A stretch of DNA of 63,823 nt, counting the filler, from Collodictyon triciliatum (taxonomy: Eukaryota): the NCBI GenBank assembly GCA_043381765.1. It is 11 parts of 11 records of this genome, joined end to end, with 100 filler letters (N's around TTAATTAATTAA, not from the genome) between each part and the next. Parts side by side here need not be neighbours in the genome. Positions count along the whole stretch, not along the records: positions 10,857 to 16,933 come from JBHJMP010004726.1; 10 more parts are not named here. One strand, given 5' to 3'. A model generated the notes under the pieces. That model made no database searches. It had not been told where the DNA came from and saw nothing but the letters and a program-made list of their open reading frames with translations. The translations under genes and the position numbers were made by a program. Each line of letters begins with the position of its first letter. Position 1 is the stretch's first letter. This document shows positions 13,036 to 37,157 of this stretch, one piece after another.

Positions 13036-13621
13036 AACAGAAGAAGAAAAAGCGAAAGTATTAAGATAAAAGGATTTCAAAGAAAATAATTTATTTCTTT
13101 ATTCCATGACTCTGTCATCTGGTTATGATGATTTTGGGTCAAAAGTCGGATAGATGAAGAGAATGAAGGAAATGAAAAGGGAAACCCCCAAATCACGAGA
13201 TACGACCACACTTCAAAAACCATCAAGCATATTCCCTTGATCAGCGCATATTTACCATTTATCATCCATTTGTTCCATACTTCCAGACATAGATTTTTTG
13301 GGAACGTTCCCTTATGCGGAAATAGAATAGAGAGTGTTCCCAATCGCTGGCGCACCTGAAGAAACTTGCTTTGTTGTTTAATTGCTATGCCACAATAGAA
13401 TATTCTTTTCCACGCGGATATACATGAATGACAAATGGCCAAAGTGGCGGAAGCAGCAAAGCATTCTGCTTTAATAGTCAGCTCTTTCTTATTCAACTGG
13501 ACGCCTGAGTAACAACCTTAGCAGTCAACATCTTTCAGAGCAGGAGACTCATCAATCTATGCACTGCGCAGTGTTGCGAAAGGCCCACGGAATCCCGCTT
13601 TGTTGAAGTTGCAAACCTGCC

Positions 13622-15976
13622 ATGAAGTTTGGGAAGCAATTAACGCTCAAGGCGCTTCCATCCTGGCTGCAGCATTATCTCGACTATGCAGCTCTCAAAA
13701 AGACAATACGAATCCCCTCGCAAGAGAGTCCGCGCAAAGGTGAAGCTCTTGTCTCCGATCAGGAGGCTGCAGATGCTTTCAAAGAGAAGTTTGCACTCGA
13801 GCTACGCAAGGTCACAGAGTTTTACACAGAGACTTACCAAAGTCAGAAGGGCAAGTACCACGATTTGCAGAAGGTGAGCTTCATCAATTTGTTTACACTG
13901 AAGTCCGCATGATTCAAAACTGTTGTATTATGATGCTTTGTTTGTAGTCACCAGAGTCCATGGACGAGAAAGACCTGAAGCAATGGACTGATCAATTGTC
14001 CGATATTTGTCAAACATGCGAGTCCCTTATCCACTACTCCCAATTAAACTTTGTTGGGTTTACAAAGATTCTGAAAAAATCTGACAAGAGATTTCCGGAA
14101 TCCCTCAGGTTTTTTCTTCTTATTGCATCTTTTCGGCTTCAGAATTTATTTTTTTGTCGCTTTAGAAATATATCTTTGAATTTTTAAAAGACAGATTTGA
14201 TTTTGCCATCGACATTTTTTTATTTTCTTCCTAACCTGCATTGATCTTTCCCAAAAAAAAAAGGCCCATATTAGGAGATACTCTCAAGTTATCCCCAATA
14301 AGCGATGTTAGTGAGCTCGAAAAAATTATTACCGAGGCAAAACAGGTGTTTTCTCTACTCTACCTTACCCCATGAGAATCCTGGAAGTTCTTCTCTTTCG
14401 TTTTTTCTTTCAATGTGTGCAAATAGGGAACTTATTTTTTCATTACTTCTGTATTGTTATTTTTTTAACTAAAAGAAAATTCTCTAATTCTTTTGAAACT
14501 TAGATATGGGTACAACATCAACCGCCGCAAACAGAAACAGGCACCTCTGAGCCTCTGGAAGGAATACCTGGTTGGTCGAGTGAAATTCCCATTGTCTCGT
14601 CTTTAGATTTGGACTCTCTTCCTACGAGCAAAGTGACAAGATTATGGGTTGCTATTGGCGTGAATGGATTATCCGAACCTATTCAAGTCCCTGTCGTTGT
14701 TGCAAAAGTAAAGTATATCACTTGCATGCATAAAAAAAAACATGGGATTATCACTATTCTGAAATCCTGAGAGCCATCTTTCGTTGGTATTAGGGATATA
14801 GATTTGGACCTATCTTCGGGATAACTGCGGCGCTGCATGGAAATGAACTTAATGGAATCCCTTTGATTCATAGACTGTTTCGTGAATTGGATTGTTCAAC
14901 CCTCACTGGTACTGTTGTTGCCGTCCTTGTTGCAAACAGCCCGGGATATCTGCGTGCGCAAAGGGGATACAGCGACGGTTCGGATTTGAATAGGTTAATG
15001 CCTGGAAAACCGAATGGTACTTCTGCTCAGGTATATCAATAATGCCTATCTTCTTTCCCATATTAGATGATTCACATACCTTGCACAACTTCATTTATCC
15101 TACGATTCATAGTTGTGATGTCGATGCTATATTTTCCAGGTCTATGCATACAATCTCATGGAAAGAATCATTCGTAAGTTCAATGTTCTGGTAGACTTAC
15201 ATACTGCGAGCACAGGGCGAGTGAATTCATTATATGTCCGAGCAAATATGAACGACCCTATTACTCGCCGAATGGCTATTCTCCAGCACCCTCAGGTATT
15301 CAAAAGTTTCAAAAGATTTTGAAACTACTTACTTCATTTACTTTGCTCGAAAAAAATGCGAAAGCTATCTCGTCACGCATCAGCGTGGTCAACATAACCT
15401 AAATTTCATCATTCGTCTTTCGTTTGCCCTTGTCTTTTATTTTTCGTTTTTCGTTCTTCCATAGTCGAAGCACCAGTAATTTCAATAATGTATAAAACTA
15501 TATAGATTATTGTCCACAATACTGGACCAGATGGCTCGTTGCGTGGGGCCGCGTGTGAAAGGAGTATTGCTTCTATCACTGTGGAGATTGGAGACCCGCA
15601 AACATTCCAAAAGCGATTTATCAAGTATGCTCTCTTGGGTGTAGAAAATATCCTTTGTAGCTTTAACATGGTTCCTCGTGAAGCAGAAAAACCTGATTAT
15701 GAGCCTGTTGTATGCACTCGCTCTTATTGGCGGTTCTCTGACACTGGGGGAATTTTGACTGTCTTGCCAGAAGTGAACACATGGGTTCGCAAAGACGAAG
15801 TTTTTGCTCAGATTCATTCCATCTTTGGAGACCTAGTGCAAGAGTATAAGGCCAGTGAAGACTCCATAGTCATCGGAAAGTCTGTCAATCCCGTTTGCCA
15901 GTCGGGCGATCGTATAATTCATTTTGGTGTTGTTGGCTCTGATTTCCATGCAAAGTCCAACGACGGGCACTTATGA
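13622..15976 (+). CDS. SPX domain fused to succinylglutamate desuccinylase/aspartoacylase (AstE/AspA, M14) domain; 7 exons: 13622-13873, 13948-14108, 14264-14345, 14504-14707, 14794-15030, 15140-15295, 15506-15976 (520 aa)
   Basis: SPX motifs MKFGKQL, YLDYAALKK, ELRKVTEFY, YSQLNFVGFTKILKKSDK. M14 motifs AALHGNELNG, DLNRLMPG, LVDLHTAS, ITVEIG. All six introns are GT-AG and preserve frame (1563 nt total). Confidence 0.9.
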
Positions 15977-16831
15977 TTCGGGGCAGCAAGCCTACTGAAT
16001 CGGGATTGAATGCTTTGCCCACTCCTTTCTATTTCCTCAATAGCTTTTTTCTTTGTTTCTCAAACATTTTTGAGAGTCTCGCCATAACGTTGTTACTTGT
16101 TTGATGCGAACCCTATCTTTATTCGATGGAAAATGAATAAACGGATGAAATGATTGGTTGGTTTAACAAAGCCATAGATGAGAATTTTTCTGCTTTATTT
16201 TATTTTTGGCGGTCGGTCGCTGCTGGACAGAACTAACAAAAAAAAAGTTTGTTGAAGCATATCTGGATTACATTTGTATTTAGTTATAAGACTAATTAAT
16301 TACATATTTCTGTTACTTAATGCTTAGAATCGTGGTGTGTTATTGTGAAGTGTAACTGAAGTATTTACAACACACGAACATAGCACTCTCTTTAACCGCA
16401 TATGACAAAAGTGGACACATCAGCCTTAATCTCATGACCGAGTTATGGGAACTCTAAATTGCTCAAAACATGAAATATCCATGGAAAATATACACAAAAG
16501 TACAAAAGTGCAATCTGTAGTGCGCCGGTTATTGTTTCGTGATGTCATAGTGTGGCTTACATGGTGTGTCACGCAATGATTGGCTCCTGTTTTCCCCATC
16601 CCTTCCAGGTTTGGGGATTTTCGGCGGGCAGTTAGTTTTCCTGGCGATCTTTTCCCTTCGGGTATTTAAGCAGACCGCCCTGGGCTAGTGTGTCGCGGCT
16701 CACAAATCAGAGCGAAAACGACCAGAGTTGGATGGTTGGAATCAGTCGTGTCCATCGCTGGTGACATGGAAGCACTCCAAAAGAGAGTGGAAAGCAATAT
16801 TTGTGTGGGGCCGTCATAGGATGCGGGTGAC

Positions 16832-16933: not shown

Positions 16934-18345
16934 NNNNNNNNNNNNNNNNNNNNNNNNNNNNNNNNNNNNNNNNNNNNTTAATTAATTAANNNNNNNNNNN
17001 NNNNNNNNNNNNNNNNNNNNNNNNNNNNNNNNNTCTTTTTCTTTTCTCTTTTTCTTTTCTCTTTTTCTTTTCTCTTTTTCTTTTCTCTTTTTCTTTTCTC
17101 TTTTTCTTTTCTCTTTTTCTTTTCTCTTTTTCCTTCCTGTAGTGTAGTCAGCCAAGAAACACCTCTAATCCCCGTTTTTCCATCTGGCGCGATTTACTCC
17201 CTTACTTTTGCATAATATGACCTTGTGAAGCTTCAATTTAATAAACTGAGATTTATGAATCCTGTAGATTTGGGAGCATGGTGAAAAGACATAGAAGACC
17301 CCCAAGCAAGGGGGGAAATACATATATGTATATTGTAATGGCGATAGCGTTCGCACAAAAGCTTATTTCTGGTATGTCTGCGAGCCTTGGGTGCACAACT
17401 AAAAGAATCCACATTTCGGCAGACTCTACTTTCCACATCTCCACCTACTTTGGATACGTGACTGATGGTTGAATGAACGATTGTTGAGAAACACCCAACG
17501 ACCAAGATTTTTATAACAAAAAAACCAAAAGATTCCACAAATAGATAATATGCTATACATTTTTGGAATATATATTATATAGCATTTATTTCCGATTAAA
17601 ATATATTAAATTCTTCTGTACACAAAAATTGATTACAGAAAATATATAATAGACAAATAGTGTAAAAGTTATTTATAAAAGGACGCATTTCCAATTTCGT
17701 GCATAATTCATCGAGTATATATAGTGGTTGAGGGTGCGATTGTCATTCAATGGCAATCCCTTGTGTGCGAACACATATCACAAACTTCTGTGGTACGTTC
17801 CAGAAGCACGGCCAGTCGCGATGAGTTTCTCATGGGGCTGCGCCTCGTGCGTCAGTCCCATCCGGCCATATTCGCTTGTGCTTTTTCGATGGAAACTCGT
17901 TGCGCACGTTTTTTTTTCAGCCAGTATTTCCCAAATATCTAATTTTCTAGAAAGACCTTTGTCTGATTCTATGCGTGTCCATTCGAGAGAAATTCAAATA
18001 AAAGGGAAAAAGAATGCCCTGATATTAAAAATAGAACAAGAGCAAAGCAAATTCGATAGCTCATCACTCAAATTGTTCGCTATATATCAAAACACGCCCA
18101 TATCAACCTTATCTGATCAAAGTAAAAAAAAATAATTGAAGAGGTGGAGAAAGGCCTTCGCAGGCTCTTGGAAAACATGATATATCATGTATTAAACATA
18201 GAGCTGATAATTCGCTCTTTCTTACTCCTGTCATCACAACAAGGCTATGACAACACGAACATTAATCACTAAACTACTTTGTTATTCTTGATATTGTTCC
18301 CCTTGTTTTGGTGCTTCCACACAGATAAATCCTACACGGTTGTGA

Positions 18346-19483
18346 ATGGATCCATTTGATTCTCTCCCGAAGCCAGAGCATGGCCTGACCAGCGAGATCT
18401 TTGCTGAGTTTGAGGAAACCATCAGTCTCTTTCTTGATAAAGAGCGCGATACTCAATTCCCCGAGCTGGACGACGCTCCTTTTCTTCCGTATCAACCCAG
18501 TAAGAACATCTACAGTAATGCTTGGACCCTCAAGCATTAAGTTCGAATGGATGTTCAATCTATTATATATTACATGGTACCGTCATCAGTCTGCCAACTC
18601 ATAGCAAGCCTATAGTTGATGCTAGATTGTCATTTATATTTAGGTATATATATTTTTACTTTAATTAAACTCAACCTCTCCTTTTTTTTCTTTCCTTTTT
18701 TTATTCGGATATGTTTCTCTGATAGATTTTCCGGCATCTGATTTCTCTTTTGTCGACGAAAATCGACTTGGCTTTTCATTCCCGGGTGGTGAGGGCACTC
18801 AACCACGCACCGCACTTGAGTACAGGACAAATACCCACGCCTCTCCATCCTGCTCTGCGAGTAGTATTACAAAGAGGAAAGTGTATGGTACATCTTCGAT
18901 GGAGTCTAAGAAAAGAATGTTGGGTCAGCATGAAAACTATCCTGACCACACACTGGAGCAAGGAAGTGAGGACCTTAGTTGTGAAGAAGACCAGGACGAC
19001 CAAGAGGGACATGATGACCAAGAACGCCAAACAGGAAGTTCAGAGGACTACACGTATCCTATCAGTAACGATGAAACAGATGAGTTTGCGTCAACAACCT
19101 CAACCTCGAAGGCTGGGCATAACCGAATCCCTAGTGAGGTGCGACAACGCATTGTCCAACTACGCATGAAAAACTTTAGTCTTCGCGAGATAGCTAAGCG
19201 TGTGCAATGCACTTTGTCAGCTGTTCAGTACACTGTGAAGAAATATTCTTGCTATCAAACTGTTGAAGACTTACCAAAATGTGGACGCACACCGCTTCTT
19301 CAATCCATCTCTGACGAGCTTCTCTTTAGCGCCTATGAGTCTACCTCTGCCAAAACCAATCGTGAGAGATTGAAATTGACTGCAGCACTCATGGCAGATT
19401 ATCTCGGCCGTGCTCCCTCTCATAAGACGATTTATAAGGAGATGTGCCGCAGAAAAAAGAAGATTGAATCGCCGGATGCCTGA
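18346..19483 (+). CDS. Acidic/low-complexity protein with a C-terminal Tc1/paired-like bipartite helix-turn-helix; exons 18346-18499 and 18726-19483
   Basis: Intron GTAAGA...ATAG joins the ORFs in frame. The C-terminus IPSEVRQRIVQLRMKNFSLREIAKRVQCTLSAVQYTVKKY..TVEDLPKCGRTP..LTAALMADYLGRAPSHKTIYKEM resembles the Tc1 transposase DNA-binding region. No DDE domain follows. Confidence 0.7.
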
Positions 19484-36757: not shown

Positions 36758-37157
36758 GTAAGCAAAATTTGAAATTAAGGTAACGAAATATGCGAGACTA
36801 CTTACAAAATAATGAATATATTGATAAAATTTAGGAGGTATGGAAATTTAATTGTTCTTGATTCCTTTCATCGTGTTCATTTCCTACGCTTCTTTTCTTA
36901 TTTCATGAATCCAATTTGGGTGTATTCTTTTTCTTCGTCTTTTTCTTCGTCTTTTTCTTCGTCTTTTTCTTCGTCTTTTTCTTNNNNNNNNNNTTCGTCT
37001 TTTTCTTCGTCTTTTTCTTCGTCTTTTTCTTCGTCTTTTTCTTCGTCTTTTACCATAATATCATATATCTCCCCTTTCATTTTATTTTATCCTCGCACTG
37101 GTGGGTGAAAAAGACATTCTCTTGACCAACCCAATTTGCAATCACCCAAATCGTCAG

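What the first reader, a model, noticed from the sequence alone, without database searches (positions are those of the whole stretch)
13622..15976. SPX phosphate-sensor domain fused to an intact M14 desuccinylase/aspartoacylase: candidate phosphate-regulated amidohydrolase
Seen: seven GT-AG exons within one gap-free contig splice into a 520-aa frame. The SPX domain keeps YLDYAALKK and the lysine cluster KILKKSDK. After a short linker comes an AstE/AspA domain with zinc ligands (HGNE, DLH), DLNR, the catalytic Glu (VEIG) and a C-terminal barrel. Established: SPX domains bind inositol pyrophosphates and are known on EXS, MFS, CitMHS, VTC, RING, ANK and GDPD partners. I do not recall a characterised SPX-M14 fusion. 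Inference: phosphate status could switch a deacylase/peptidase acting on N-acyl amino acids or acidic peptides. The enzyme part looks like the bacterial-type family, so it may have been acquired and placed under a eukaryotic sensor.
Basis: partly seen in the sequence, partly recalled or inferred. Interest (0 to 1): 0.8.

Follow-up and report, generated by a model that had tools for sequence, protein, structure and literature searches.

The report
SPX sensor fused to zinc amidohydrolase
This is a real, expressed eukaryotic gene that joins a phosphate-status sensor (SPX) domain to an intact bacterial-type zinc amidohydrolase; the same fusion is common in early-diverging fungi and several protists, yet its function appears never to have been studied.

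Summary
Seven GT..AG exons (13622-15976, +) splice into a 520-aa frame. Exons 1-2 match Pfam SPX and exons 5-7 match AstE_AspA_cat. One cDNA contig from a related strain joins exon 2 to 3 to 4 to 5 to 6 to 7, so both domains lie on one mRNA.

All six inositol-pyrophosphate-binding residues of the SPX domain are present, as are the zinc ligands and the catalytic Glu.

The architecture is not unique. 90 of the 120 listed homologues carry both Pfam families. They come from chytrids, Kickxellomycotina, Mortierellomycotina, Glomeromycotina, Pneumocystis, plasmodiophorids and Balamuthia. These sequences form one well-supported clade (99/99).

Four targeted full-text searches found no paper that describes the fusion.

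The enzyme half is closest to DoeB-type deacetylases but is not DoeB, AstE or aspartoacylase. Its substrate is unknown, and regulation by phosphate status is inferred, not shown. A bacterial origin is plausible but unresolved.

Two extras emerged:
- A clade-specific C-terminal D-G-H tail.
- A fungal sister family in which a HutD domain takes the place of SPX.

Verdict: a new variant of SPX-controlled effectors, of moderate to high interest.

The parts
13499..13621 (+). 5' UTR. The cDNA 5' end lies at about 13499, and a 15-codon upstream ORF starts at 13559.
   Evidence: The X1 cDNA contig begins at 13499, directly after a template-switch adapter (tables 7-8).
13622..13873 (+). Exon 1 (aa 1-84): the N-terminal SPX helices, holding Y22 and K26 of the phosphate-binding cluster.
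   Evidence: Pfam SPX at E 6.4e-10, 40 bits against a 27.8 cut-off. It aligns from residue 1 to the SPX structure 5ijj with the same numbering.
13874..13947 (+). Intron 1 (74 nt, GT..AG). It is retained in the one cDNA contig that covers it.
   Evidence: Retention gives a stop at codon 97. There are 7 strain differences in its 74 nt.
13948..14108 (+). Exon 2 (aa 85-137): SPX helix alpha-4 with the lysines K124, K127, K128 and K131.
   Evidence: Exon aa 9-48 align to yeast Vtc4 residues 98-137. The four lysines therefore fall on Vtc4 K129, K132, K133 and K136. The roles of those Vtc4 residues come from PMC9911596.
14109..14263 (+). Intron 2 (155 nt).
   Evidence: The joint 14108/14264 is present in cDNA contig X1.
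14264..14345 (+). Exon 3 (aa 138-165): the last SPX helices and a conserved segment of the type 'SE.DE..L.EAKQ'.
   Evidence: No Pfam hit, but it aligns with the fused orthologues. The equivalent region is helical in the orthologue model, residues 138-171.
14346..14503 (+). Intron 3 (158 nt).
   Evidence: The joint 14345/14504 is present in X1. The X3 loose end carries the end of exon 3.
14504..14707 (+). Exon 4 (aa 166-233): a Pro-rich flexible linker, then the first beta-strands of the amidohydrolase domain. It contains no in-frame ATG.
   Evidence: The linker has pLDDT below 50 in the orthologue model, residues 174-187. Bacterial homologues begin aligning here.
14708..14793 (+). Intron 4 (86 nt).
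   Evidence: The joint is present in X1 and X2. X4 reads through the donor site.
14794..15030 (+). Exon 5 (aa 234-312): HGNE (the Zn ligands H248 and E251) and DLNR (R300).
   Evidence: Pfam AstE_AspA_cat at E 7.6e-15. Conservation among fused orthologues is 50-51 of 51.
15031..15139 (+). Intron 5 (109 nt).
   Evidence: The joint is present in X1 and X2.
15140..15295 (+). Exon 6 (aa 313-364): DLHTA, holding the third Zn ligand H333.
   Evidence: Pfam at E 1.3e-3. H333 is kept in 51 of 51 fused orthologues.
15296..15505 (+). Intron 6 (210 nt).
   Evidence: The joint is present in X1.
15506..15976 (+). Exon 7 (aa 365-520 plus the stop): VEIG (catalytic E391), the C-terminal beta domain, and the clade-specific tail ending D-G-H-L.
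   Evidence: Homologues are 50-67% identical over 85-100% of this exon.
15625..15683 (+). Optional 59-nt GT..AG intron inside exon 7. Its removal shifts the frame, ends the protein at aa 407 and drops the beta domain.
   Evidence: The joint is seen in X1 only. X2 covers 15652-16170 unspliced.
15977..16170 (+). 3' UTR, up to the poly(A) site.
   Evidence: The X2 contig ends at 16170, followed by 17 A (table 7).

Best explanation
This is a single nuclear gene of an unidentified eukaryote. In the enzyme-domain tree its protein sits with one from Fonticula alba and two unnamed proteins. It encodes a soluble 520-aa protein with two domains.

The N-terminal SPX domain (about aa 1-170) keeps the complete basic surface that SPX receptors use to bind InsP6 and inositol pyrophosphates: Y22, K26 and K128, plus K124, K127 and K131.

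A flexible Pro-rich linker joins it to an AstE/AspA-type (M14-like) zinc amidohydrolase. This half has the Zn ligands H248, E251 and H333, the arginine of DLNR (R300), the general-base Glu E391 and a C-terminal beta domain.

Most likely reaction (inferred): the enzyme hydrolyses an amide bond in a small N-acyl or iso-linked amino-acid conjugate that carries a free carboxylate. This is what its nearest solved relatives do (DoeB on N-acetyl-diaminobutyrate; also AstE, aspartoacylase and CphZ).

Most likely regulation (inferred): occupancy of the SPX surface by inositol pyrophosphates tunes the activity to cellular phosphate status. This is by analogy with SPX control of VTC, Pho90/91, XPR1 and Gde1-type proteins.

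What is shown and what is not:
- Shown: the gene structure, a single transcript, intact motifs in both halves, membership of a widely distributed eukaryotic clade, and purifying selection.
- Inferred: ligand binding, the regulatory coupling and the substrate class.
For: - Gene model and frame.
- Domains by exon.
- One cDNA contig with 5 of the 6 introns removed links both domains.
- There is no in-frame ATG in exons 3-4 that could start a separate enzyme gene.
- Full-length colinearity with orthologues.
- SPX residues map one-to-one onto yeast Vtc4 Y22/K26/K133 and K129/K132/K136. Mutating these residues lowers InsP6-stimulated polyP synthesis (passages of PMC9911596).
- The same six positions are kept in 42, 45, 46, 45, 49 and 45 of 51 fused orthologues. 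The Zn and catalytic positions are kept in 50-51 of 51.
- The orthologue model (pLDDT 88.4) matches the InsP6-bound SPX structure 5ijj (TM 0.82) and DoeB 6twm (TM 0.82-0.84, E 3e-26).
- There are 8 synonymous and 2 non-synonymous differences against related-strain cDNA.
- The SPX-type sequences form one clade with 99/99 support, spanning fungi, Fonticula, Balamuthia and plasmodiophorids.
Against: - No experiment or expression series links the gene to phosphate.
- The inter-domain arrangement in the model is uncertain (pTM 0.64).
- The enzyme half fails the curated cut-offs of every characterised subfamily: DoeB 64.8 against 402.7 bits, AstE 20.6 against 305.65, aspartoacylase 24.9 against 180 (on orthologue P0014). 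The substrate is therefore open.
- Two ascomycete members of the same clade lack SPX yet keep the enzyme and its tail, so the enzyme can work without the sensor.
- The only cDNA contig that covers intron 1 retains it and also uses a frame-breaking extra intron. Part of the mRNA pool therefore may not encode the full fusion.
- Structure and PDB searches used a 53%-identical orthologue, not the window's own protein.
Confidence: 0.6

Rival explanations
1. The catalytic domain is a peptidase that undoes a bond made by an ATP-grasp ligase. Examples would be trimming glutamate-type tails or a glutathione-like small peptide, rather than deacylating a simple N-acyl amino acid. SPX would then tie that turnover to phosphate status.
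For: In the nearest named bacterial group (Saprospirales, Bacteroidota), the homologue sits directly downstream, on the same strand, of a GshB/RimK-like ATP-grasp ligase in 54 of 71 loci that have enough upstream DNA. It lies with a conserved 485-aa protein of no known family in 45 of 67 loci. SET-domain genes occur upstream in 11 of 52 loci and 2OG-Fe(II) oxygenase genes in 12 of 52. M14 deglutamylases such as CCP5 appear among the weaker fold matches.
Against: The best fold and sequence matches are small-molecule enzymes (DoeB, 3cdx, 3na6, CphZ). No ATP-grasp gene lies in the first 31 kb of the window. The top 120 relatives of the bacterial ligase carry only bacterial or no names. The bacterial group is not shown to be the sister of the eukaryotic clade.
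Confidence: 0.2
2. The SPX domain is not a switch of catalysis. It serves as a docking or localisation module, for example bringing a constitutive hydrolase to other phosphate-signalling proteins or membranes, or it is a relic.
For: Stand-alone members of the same clade exist in Sporothrix and Pestalotiopsis. A sister clade carries HutD instead of SPX. The low-confidence linker and pTM of 0.64 give no fixed domain contact.
Against: The six ligand-binding residues are kept in 42-49 of 51 orthologues across fungi, Amoebozoa and Rhizaria. That argues for a working receptor surface rather than a relic.
Confidence: 0.15
3. It is two neighbouring genes (SPX and deacylase) wrongly merged, or a read-through artefact.
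For: Exons 3 and 4 have no Pfam hit. The one contig that covers intron 1 is imperfectly spliced.
Against: Spliced joints link exon 2 to 3 to 4 in frame on one cDNA contig, and the 3/4 joint is seen in a second study. The linker is conserved in orthologues. 90 of 120 listed homologues show the same architecture. Exons 3-4 hold no in-frame ATG.
Confidence: 0.02

Closest known systems
DoeB/EutE N-acetyl-L-2,4-diaminobutyrate deacetylase (PDB 6twm, 6twl) and uncharacterised relatives 3cdx, 3na6 and 2qj8
   Same: The two-domain fold is the same: TM 0.79-0.84 normalised to the target, and 320 alignment columns against 326 residues for 6twm. The H-x-x-E, (D/N)LNR, D-x-H and T-E-(I/L)-G motifs align.
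   Different: Identity is only 20-22%. The DoeB model scores 64.8 bits against a cut-off of 402.7. There is no ectoine context. The eukaryotic proteins add an N-terminal SPX domain and a C-terminal D-G-H tail.
SPX-enzyme fusions already studied: Vtc4 (SPX plus polyphosphate polymerase) and Gde1 (SPX-ANK-GDPD)
   Same: All have an N-terminal SPX domain with the same ligand-binding residues. The fold matches the Gde1 SPX-InsP6 structure 5ijj at TM 0.82. The logic of sensor plus catalytic output on one chain is the same.
   Different: The output domain here is a zinc amidohydrolase with no evident phosphate-containing substrate. There is no membrane part and there are no ankyrin repeats.
Fungal and amoebozoan HutD(Ves)-AstE/AspA fusions (for example Absidia, Phlyctochytrium, Acanthamoeba)
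   Same: They belong to the same enzyme subfamily, 44-50% identical to the SPX-type orthologue. They are also eukaryotic, and they also carry an N-terminal small-molecule-related domain and a conserved extreme C-terminus.
   Different: They form a separate clade (100/99). They have HutD (PF05962) in place of SPX, and their tail ends [KH]-E-[NE]-Y instead of D-G-H-x.
Saprospirales (Bacteroidota) stand-alone homologues of 320-331 aa
   Same: They are 53-56% identical over exon 7 and colinear over the whole enzyme half.
   Different: They have no SPX and no C-terminal tail. The DLNR arginine is His in 8 of 11 of them. They are encoded in an operon with an ATP-grasp ligase.
AstE, aspartoacylase/ACY3 and CphZ
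   Same: They share the Pfam family PF24827 and an M14-like zinc site. Fold matches are at E 1e-9 to 3e-18.
   Different: They are much more distant (TM 0.54-0.68). The curated models are far below their cut-offs.

Membership tests
SPX domain (Pfam PF03105) | Profile match above the curated cut-off | tested here: met
   Exon 1 scores 40 bits against 27.8. Exon 2 alone scores 26.4 bits. The orthologue P0014 scores 62.5 bits.
SPX domain (Pfam PF03105) | Phosphate-binding cluster (Tyr, Lys, Lys) and lysine surface cluster (three Lys) on helices alpha-2 and alpha-4 | tested here: met
   Y22, K26 and K128, and K124, K127 and K131, align to Vtc4 Y22, K26 and K133, and K129, K132 and K136. They are kept in 42-49 of 51 orthologues.
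SPX domain (Pfam PF03105) | Helical-bundle SPX fold | tested here: met
   Tested on the model of orthologue P0014 only: 5ijj at TM 0.82 over 176 alignment columns.
SPX domain (Pfam PF03105) | Binding of InsP6 / PP-InsPs | not testable with these tools
   This needs ITC or a similar assay on recombinant protein.
AstE/AspA zinc amidohydrolases (Pfam PF24827, M14-like) | Profile match above the curated cut-off | tested here: met
   Exon 5 scores 55.4 bits against 25. The orthologue scores 112.8 bits.
AstE/AspA zinc amidohydrolases (Pfam PF24827, M14-like) | Zn ligands H-x-x-E...H and the catalytic Glu (the roles of these residues are recalled from the aspartoacylase/M14 literature, not from a call) | tested here: met
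   H248, E251, H333 and E391 are present, kept in 50-51 of 51 orthologues, and aligned to the same motifs of DoeB and 3cdx.
AstE/AspA zinc amidohydrolases (Pfam PF24827, M14-like) | Catalytic domain followed by a C-terminal beta domain | tested here: met
   The orthologue model aligns with whole DoeB chains. The window's exon 7 aligns to DoeB model positions 196-321.
DoeB (NCBIfam TIGR02994, equivalog) | Score at or above 402.7 bits | tested here: not met
   The orthologue scores 64.8 bits. The window's exons score 32.3 and 27.4 bits.
AstE succinylglutamate desuccinylase (TIGR03242) | Score at or above 305.65 bits | tested here: not met
   20.6 bits.
Aspartoacylase (NF002601) | Score at or above 180 bits | tested here: not met
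   24.9 bits.
SPX-AstE/AspA fusion clade (database architecture, uncharacterised) | Both domains on one chain, placement inside the 99/99 clade, and the C-terminal D-G-H tail | tested here: met
   The window groups with P0007, P0001 and the Fonticula protein at 98/93 support.

The most novel reading that the evidence does not exclude
The family is an overlooked, ancient output branch of inositol-pyrophosphate signalling. Instead of handling phosphate, it directly gates nitrogen / amino-acid-conjugate metabolism. SPX occupancy, possibly acting through the clade-specific C-terminal D-G-H tail folding onto the zinc site, would switch a deacylase that releases an amino acid from a storage or protective conjugate. 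This would couple P status to N metabolism in fungi, Amoebozoa and Rhizaria.
Probability: 0.25. Interest if true: 0.8.

Novelty: new variant of a known kind. Interest (0 to 1): 0.58.

Why it matters
A conserved SPX-amidohydrolase would extend direct inositol-pyrophosphate control to an enzyme with no obvious phosphate substrate.

The fusion is retained in more than 90 database proteins. These include Pneumocystis and the plasmodiophorids, which I recall to be obligate parasites with reduced genomes.

The fusion gives a ready-made, soluble, single-chain system in which SPX-to-enzyme coupling can be assayed in vitro. It also points to an unknown metabolite whose turnover is tied to phosphate status.

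The window's gene adds a transcript-validated, deeply divergent member, at most about 53% identical over its full length to any database protein (58% to a 421-aa partial one).

Tried and rejected
- Whole-genome search: no genome is held for this window. Paralogues and a partner ligase in the same organism could not be sought.
- Complex prediction (SPX half against enzyme half of the orthologue alignment): the queue was full and the tool was then declared unavailable. Nothing was folded.
- Coordinates of the AlphaFold model are not exposed, so I could not see where the D-G-H tail or the SPX basic surface lies relative to the zinc site.
- Literature, 10 of 10 searches used:
  - 'SPX domain' with 'succinylglutamate desuccinylase', with 'aspartoacylase', 'SPX' with 'AstE_AspA', and 'ATP-grasp' with 'succinylglutamate desuccinylase' each returned 0 papers.
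  - A loose five-term search and a taxon search listed nothing with 'SPX domain'.
  - 'SPX domain' with 'amidohydrolase' gave 6 plant or alga papers that look unrelated by title (listing only).
  - In PMC8401276 (passages read), the SPX proteins of arbuscular mycorrhizal fungi that are listed are the Pho81, Pho87/90/91 and VTC types only.
- The DoeB structure paper could not be fetched by DOI.
- Earlier scan notes: nothing on this genome. A word search gave two unrelated AstE-type findings in bacteria.
- The 485-aa bacterial neighbour: no Pfam or NCBIfam hit. The Atlas gives only weak leads, to ATP-grasp/TTL-like (0.94) and GshA (0.91) clusters.
- Quick tree of all 130 rows: the backbone is unresolved and long branches were flagged. 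It was replaced by a careful tree of 69 rows that I chose. 61 rows were dropped, among them the long-branch rows P0156, P0196, P0257, P0241 and P0188.
- A peroxisomal PTS1 reading of the tail was rejected. The conserved part is D-G-H, while the last residue varies or is absent.
Full report
**1. The observation**

The seven segments are 13622-13873, 13948-14108, 14264-14345, 14504-14707, 14794-15030, 15140-15295 and 15506-15976. All are bounded by GT..AG. They sum to 1563 nt and translate to 520 aa with one terminal stop.

Exon GC is 45% against 32% in the introns. The six quoted motifs each occur once, at aa 19, 124, 248, 297, 331 and 390.

Scanned exon by exon, Pfam gives these hits:
- SPX on exon 1: E 6.4e-10, above the curated cut-off.
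- SPX on exon 2: E 8.7e-6, 26.4 bits, just below the cut-off of 27.8.
- AstE_AspA_cat on exons 5, 6 and 7: E 7.6e-15, 1.3e-3 and 0.09.
- Exons 3 and 4: no hit.

The window contains 22 runs of N, but none lies within the gene.

**2. One gene, one mRNA**

Public run X1 comes from a close relative (95-99% alike). It holds one 1908-nt contig that begins with a template-switch adapter at 13499 and runs to 16156. That contig carries the joints 14108/14264, 14345/14504, 14707/14794, 15030/15140 and 15295/15506.

Further transcript evidence:
- Run X2 repeats two joints and shows a poly(A) tail at 16170.
- A lake-water metatranscriptome contig (X3, another study) carries the exon 3/exon 4 joint as a loose end.

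Results that go against a clean model:
- Intron 1 is retained in the only contig covering it.
- That contig also removes an extra 59 nt (15625-15683, GT..AG) from exon 7.
- X4 reads through the exon 4 donor site.

Retention of intron 1 gives a stop at codon 97. The 59-nt splice ends the protein at aa 407, without the beta domain. These contigs cannot tell isoform proportions.

Intron 1 is nevertheless supported by the frame and by the orthologue alignment. It also shows 7 strain differences in 74 nt, against 4 in the 413 nt of exons 1-2.

Across the CDS, the differences from X1 and X2 are 8 synonymous and 2 non-synonymous.

Exons 3-4 contain no in-frame ATG. The spliced protein is colinear from residue 1 to 520 with fused orthologues of 506-534 aa, including a conserved segment in the linker.

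**3. How common the architecture is**

A search with exon 7 against longer proteins gave 484 hits at E <= 1e-3, of which 120 were listed. By my count of the table, 90 of the 120 carry both PF24827 and PF03105.

Named sources include:
- chytrids (Phlyctochytrium, Chytridium, Synchytrium and others);
- Kickxellomycotina (many Coemansia);
- Mortierellomycotina;
- Glomeromycotina (Ambispora, Geosiphon);
- Basidiobolus, Neoconidiobolus and Massospora;
- four Pneumocystis proteins;
- Plasmodiophora, Spongospora and Balamuthia.

Paulinella was added.

The other 30 listed proteins are 12 bacterial-type stand-alone proteins of 323-331 aa and 18 shorter or differently modelled eukaryotic entries. At least one of the 18 (P0002) shows a weak partial SPX match when rescanned.

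The best full-length identity to the window's protein is about 53%; a 421-aa partial protein reaches 58%. The source organism itself is therefore not in the protein database.

**4. The SPX half**

Exon 1 aligns from residue 1 to the SPX structure 5ijj and to XPR1, with Y22 and K26 at the same numbers.

Exon 2 aligns to yeast Vtc4 residues 98-137. This places K124, K127, K128 and K131 on Vtc4 K129, K132, K133 and K136.

In Vtc4, Y22/K26/K133 form the phosphate-binding cluster and K129/K132/K136 form the lysine surface cluster. Together they contact InsP6, and they are needed for InsP6-stimulated polyphosphate synthesis (passages of PMC9911596).

Among 51 fused orthologues the six positions are kept in 42, 45, 46, 45, 49 and 45.

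An AlphaFold2 model was made of the Basidiobolus orthologue P0014, which is 53% identical to the window's protein. It was used because a spliced sequence could not be handed to the tool. It has mean pLDDT 88.4 and pTM 0.64. Its N-terminal half matches 5ijj with TM 0.82.

**5. The enzyme half**

The same model matches these structures:

| Structure | E-value | TM (to target) |
|---|---|---|
| DoeB/EutE 6twm | 3e-26 | 0.82-0.84 |
| 3na6, 3cdx, 2qj8 | about 1e-25 to 1e-22 | about 0.8 |
| CphZ | about 3e-18 | 0.68 |
| AstE, aminoacylase 3, MpaA and classical M14 carboxypeptidases | 1e-9 to 1e-12 | 0.35-0.62 |

By sequence, 3cdx (E 1.5e-17) and DoeB (about 1e-13) are the nearest solved relatives. 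The HGNE/HGDE, DLNR/NLNR, DLH/DFH and VEIG/TELG motifs align.

The curated NCBIfam models are all far below their cut-offs:
- DoeB: 64.8 against 402.7 bits.
- AstE: 20.6 against 305.65 bits.
- Aspartoacylase: 24.9 against 180 bits.

The protein therefore belongs to the family but to none of its characterised subfamilies.

H248, E251, H333 and E391 are kept in 50-51 of 51 fused orthologues. R300 is kept in 51 of 51, whereas 8 of the 11 bacterial relatives in the alignment have His at that position.

**6. Phylogeny**

phmmer with P0014 against 1.84 billion representatives gave 5404 hits at E <= 1e-3 and 417 at E <= 1e-30.

I scanned 42 of the 150 listed representatives with Pfam; nearly all of these were the ones of about 390 aa or more. 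The result was 6 with SPX plus AstE_AspA_cat, 8 with HutD plus AstE_AspA_cat, and 28 with the enzyme domain alone.

Look-ups show that the HutD forms are fungal or amoebozoan (Absidia, Phlyctochytrium, and Acanthamoeba in one cluster). Related stand-alone forms occur in Rozella, Plasmodiophora, Sporothrix and Pestalotiopsis.

A careful tree was built from 69 rows that I chose out of 130, using IQ-TREE with LG+C20+F+G4 PMSF. It gives:
- one clade of 26 rows at 99/99, containing all 24 SPX-group rows plus the two ascomycete stand-alone proteins;
- the window's protein together with P0007, P0001 and the Fonticula alba protein at 98/93;
- a separate HutD clade at 100/99.

The nodes that tie these clades to the bacterial-type rows have 43-66% bootstrap support.

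The data thus fit a single origin of the SPX fusion, with later loss of SPX in some Ascomycota. The eukaryotic clades are nested among bacterial-type sequences, but neither a donor nor the number of transfers is resolved.

**7. Leads to function**

Bacterial neighbours. Among 80 bacterial loci, almost all of them Saprospirales, the homologue follows a GshB/RimK-like ATP-grasp ligase on the same strand in 54 of 71 loci with enough upstream DNA. It lies with a conserved 485-aa protein of no family in 45 of 67. SET-domain genes lie upstream in 11 of 52 and 2OG-Fe(II) oxygenase genes in 12 of 52. This suggests a ligase/hydrolase pair acting on one amide bond.

No eukaryotic name appeared among the ligase's top 120 relatives. 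No ATP-grasp gene lies in the first 31 kb of the window.

The HutD sister fusion points to N-acyl-glutamate-like small molecules. HutD belongs to histidine-utilisation operons; this is recalled, not tested.

C-terminal tails:
- The SPX-type clade ends in a conserved D-G-H-x tail: 101 of 108 proteins P0001-P0108, and 48-50 of 51 in the alignment.
- The HutD clade ends in [KH]-E-[NE]-Y in 10 of 12.
- None of 24 bacterial-type proteins has either tail.

The conserved part is D-G-H and not the last residue, which argues against a PTS1 signal. Its role is unexplained. An active-site or regulatory tail is possible.

**8. Mechanism proposed**

Shown: a cytosolic-type protein whose N-terminus is itself the first SPX helix, with a complete PP-InsP-binding surface, a flexible linker and a complete zinc amidohydrolase, conserved as a unit across three eukaryotic supergroups.

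Inferred: PP-InsP occupancy of SPX modulates hydrolysis of a small N-acyl or iso-linked amino-acid conjugate.

My estimates:
- About 0.97 that the fusion is real.
- About 0.8 that the SPX domain binds PP-InsPs.
- About 0.5-0.6 that catalysis is regulated by them.
- About 0.6 that the substrate is a small conjugate rather than a peptide or protein tail.

**9. Novelty**

The architecture is catalogued automatically in databases and is widespread, so the window's gene is not unique. Four targeted searches returned no paper that describes it. The library covers only CC-licensed PMC papers and bioRxiv, and supplements were not examined. Subscription papers or InterPro notes may therefore exist that I could not see.

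Relative to described SPX systems it is a new variant: a known sensor with a new class of output.

**10. Not done**

- No genome is held for the organism.
- Model coordinates could not be inspected.
- All structure-based statements rest on a 53%-identical orthologue.

Noticed in passing
window 4579-60278 (22 runs; e.g. 10757-10800 and 10813-10856, 16934-16977 and 16990-17033): Pairs of 44-N runs separated by 12 bases recur about every 6176 bases. There is also one 379-N run (7023-7401) and one 10-N run (36984-36993). The regular spacing looks like masking rather than assembly gaps.
   Followed up: no
window 15625-15683 and 13874-13947: The related-strain cDNA contig uses an extra 59-nt GT..AG intron inside exon 7 (frameshift; the protein ends at aa 407 without the beta domain) and retains intron 1 (stop at codon 97). 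This may be alternative or unproductive splicing that could regulate the dose of the full fusion.
   Followed up: partly
window 13559-13606: A 15-codon upstream ORF lies in the 5' UTR of the gene.
   Followed up: no
window 15962-15973 (last four codons) and the C-termini of P0001-P0108: A conserved extreme C-terminal D-G-H-x tail is specific to the SPX-type clade. It is also kept in the two SPX-less ascomycete members and is absent from bacterial relatives. Its role is unknown.
   Followed up: partly
proteins P0135, P0136, P0139, P0148, P0153, P0173, P0187, P0230, P0266, P0397: A sister family in fungi and Acanthamoeba fuses HutD/Ves (PF05962) to the same amidohydrolase subfamily. It ends in a different conserved tail, [KH]-E-[NE]-Y.
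   Followed up: partly
loci L001-L080, e.g. L012:3544-6981 and L021:2153-6990: Saprospirales operon: a 485-aa protein with no Pfam or NCBIfam family, then a GshB/RimK-like ATP-grasp ligase, then the AstE/AspA-type hydrolase. A SET-domain gene and a 2OG-Fe(II) oxygenase gene sometimes precede them.
   Followed up: partly
window 2209-2940 (+): An ORF with a CYTH (triphosphate tunnel) domain, E 2.9e-12. It is another phosphate-related enzyme family, about 11 kb upstream of the SPX gene. Its gene model was not worked out.
   Followed up: no
window 5454-6502 (-), 113-571 (-), 18665-19480 (+): Exons of a carnitine/choline acyltransferase gene, a PFF1-type vacuolar protease membrane domain, and an ORF with transposase-like HTH domains.
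   Followed up: no
runs X3 and X4: Near-identical fragments of this gene occur in two lake-water metatranscriptomes from different studies. The organism or a close relative is therefore probably a freshwater microbe. Shares were small (0.06-0.08), and only 3 short contigs were laid.
   Followed up: no
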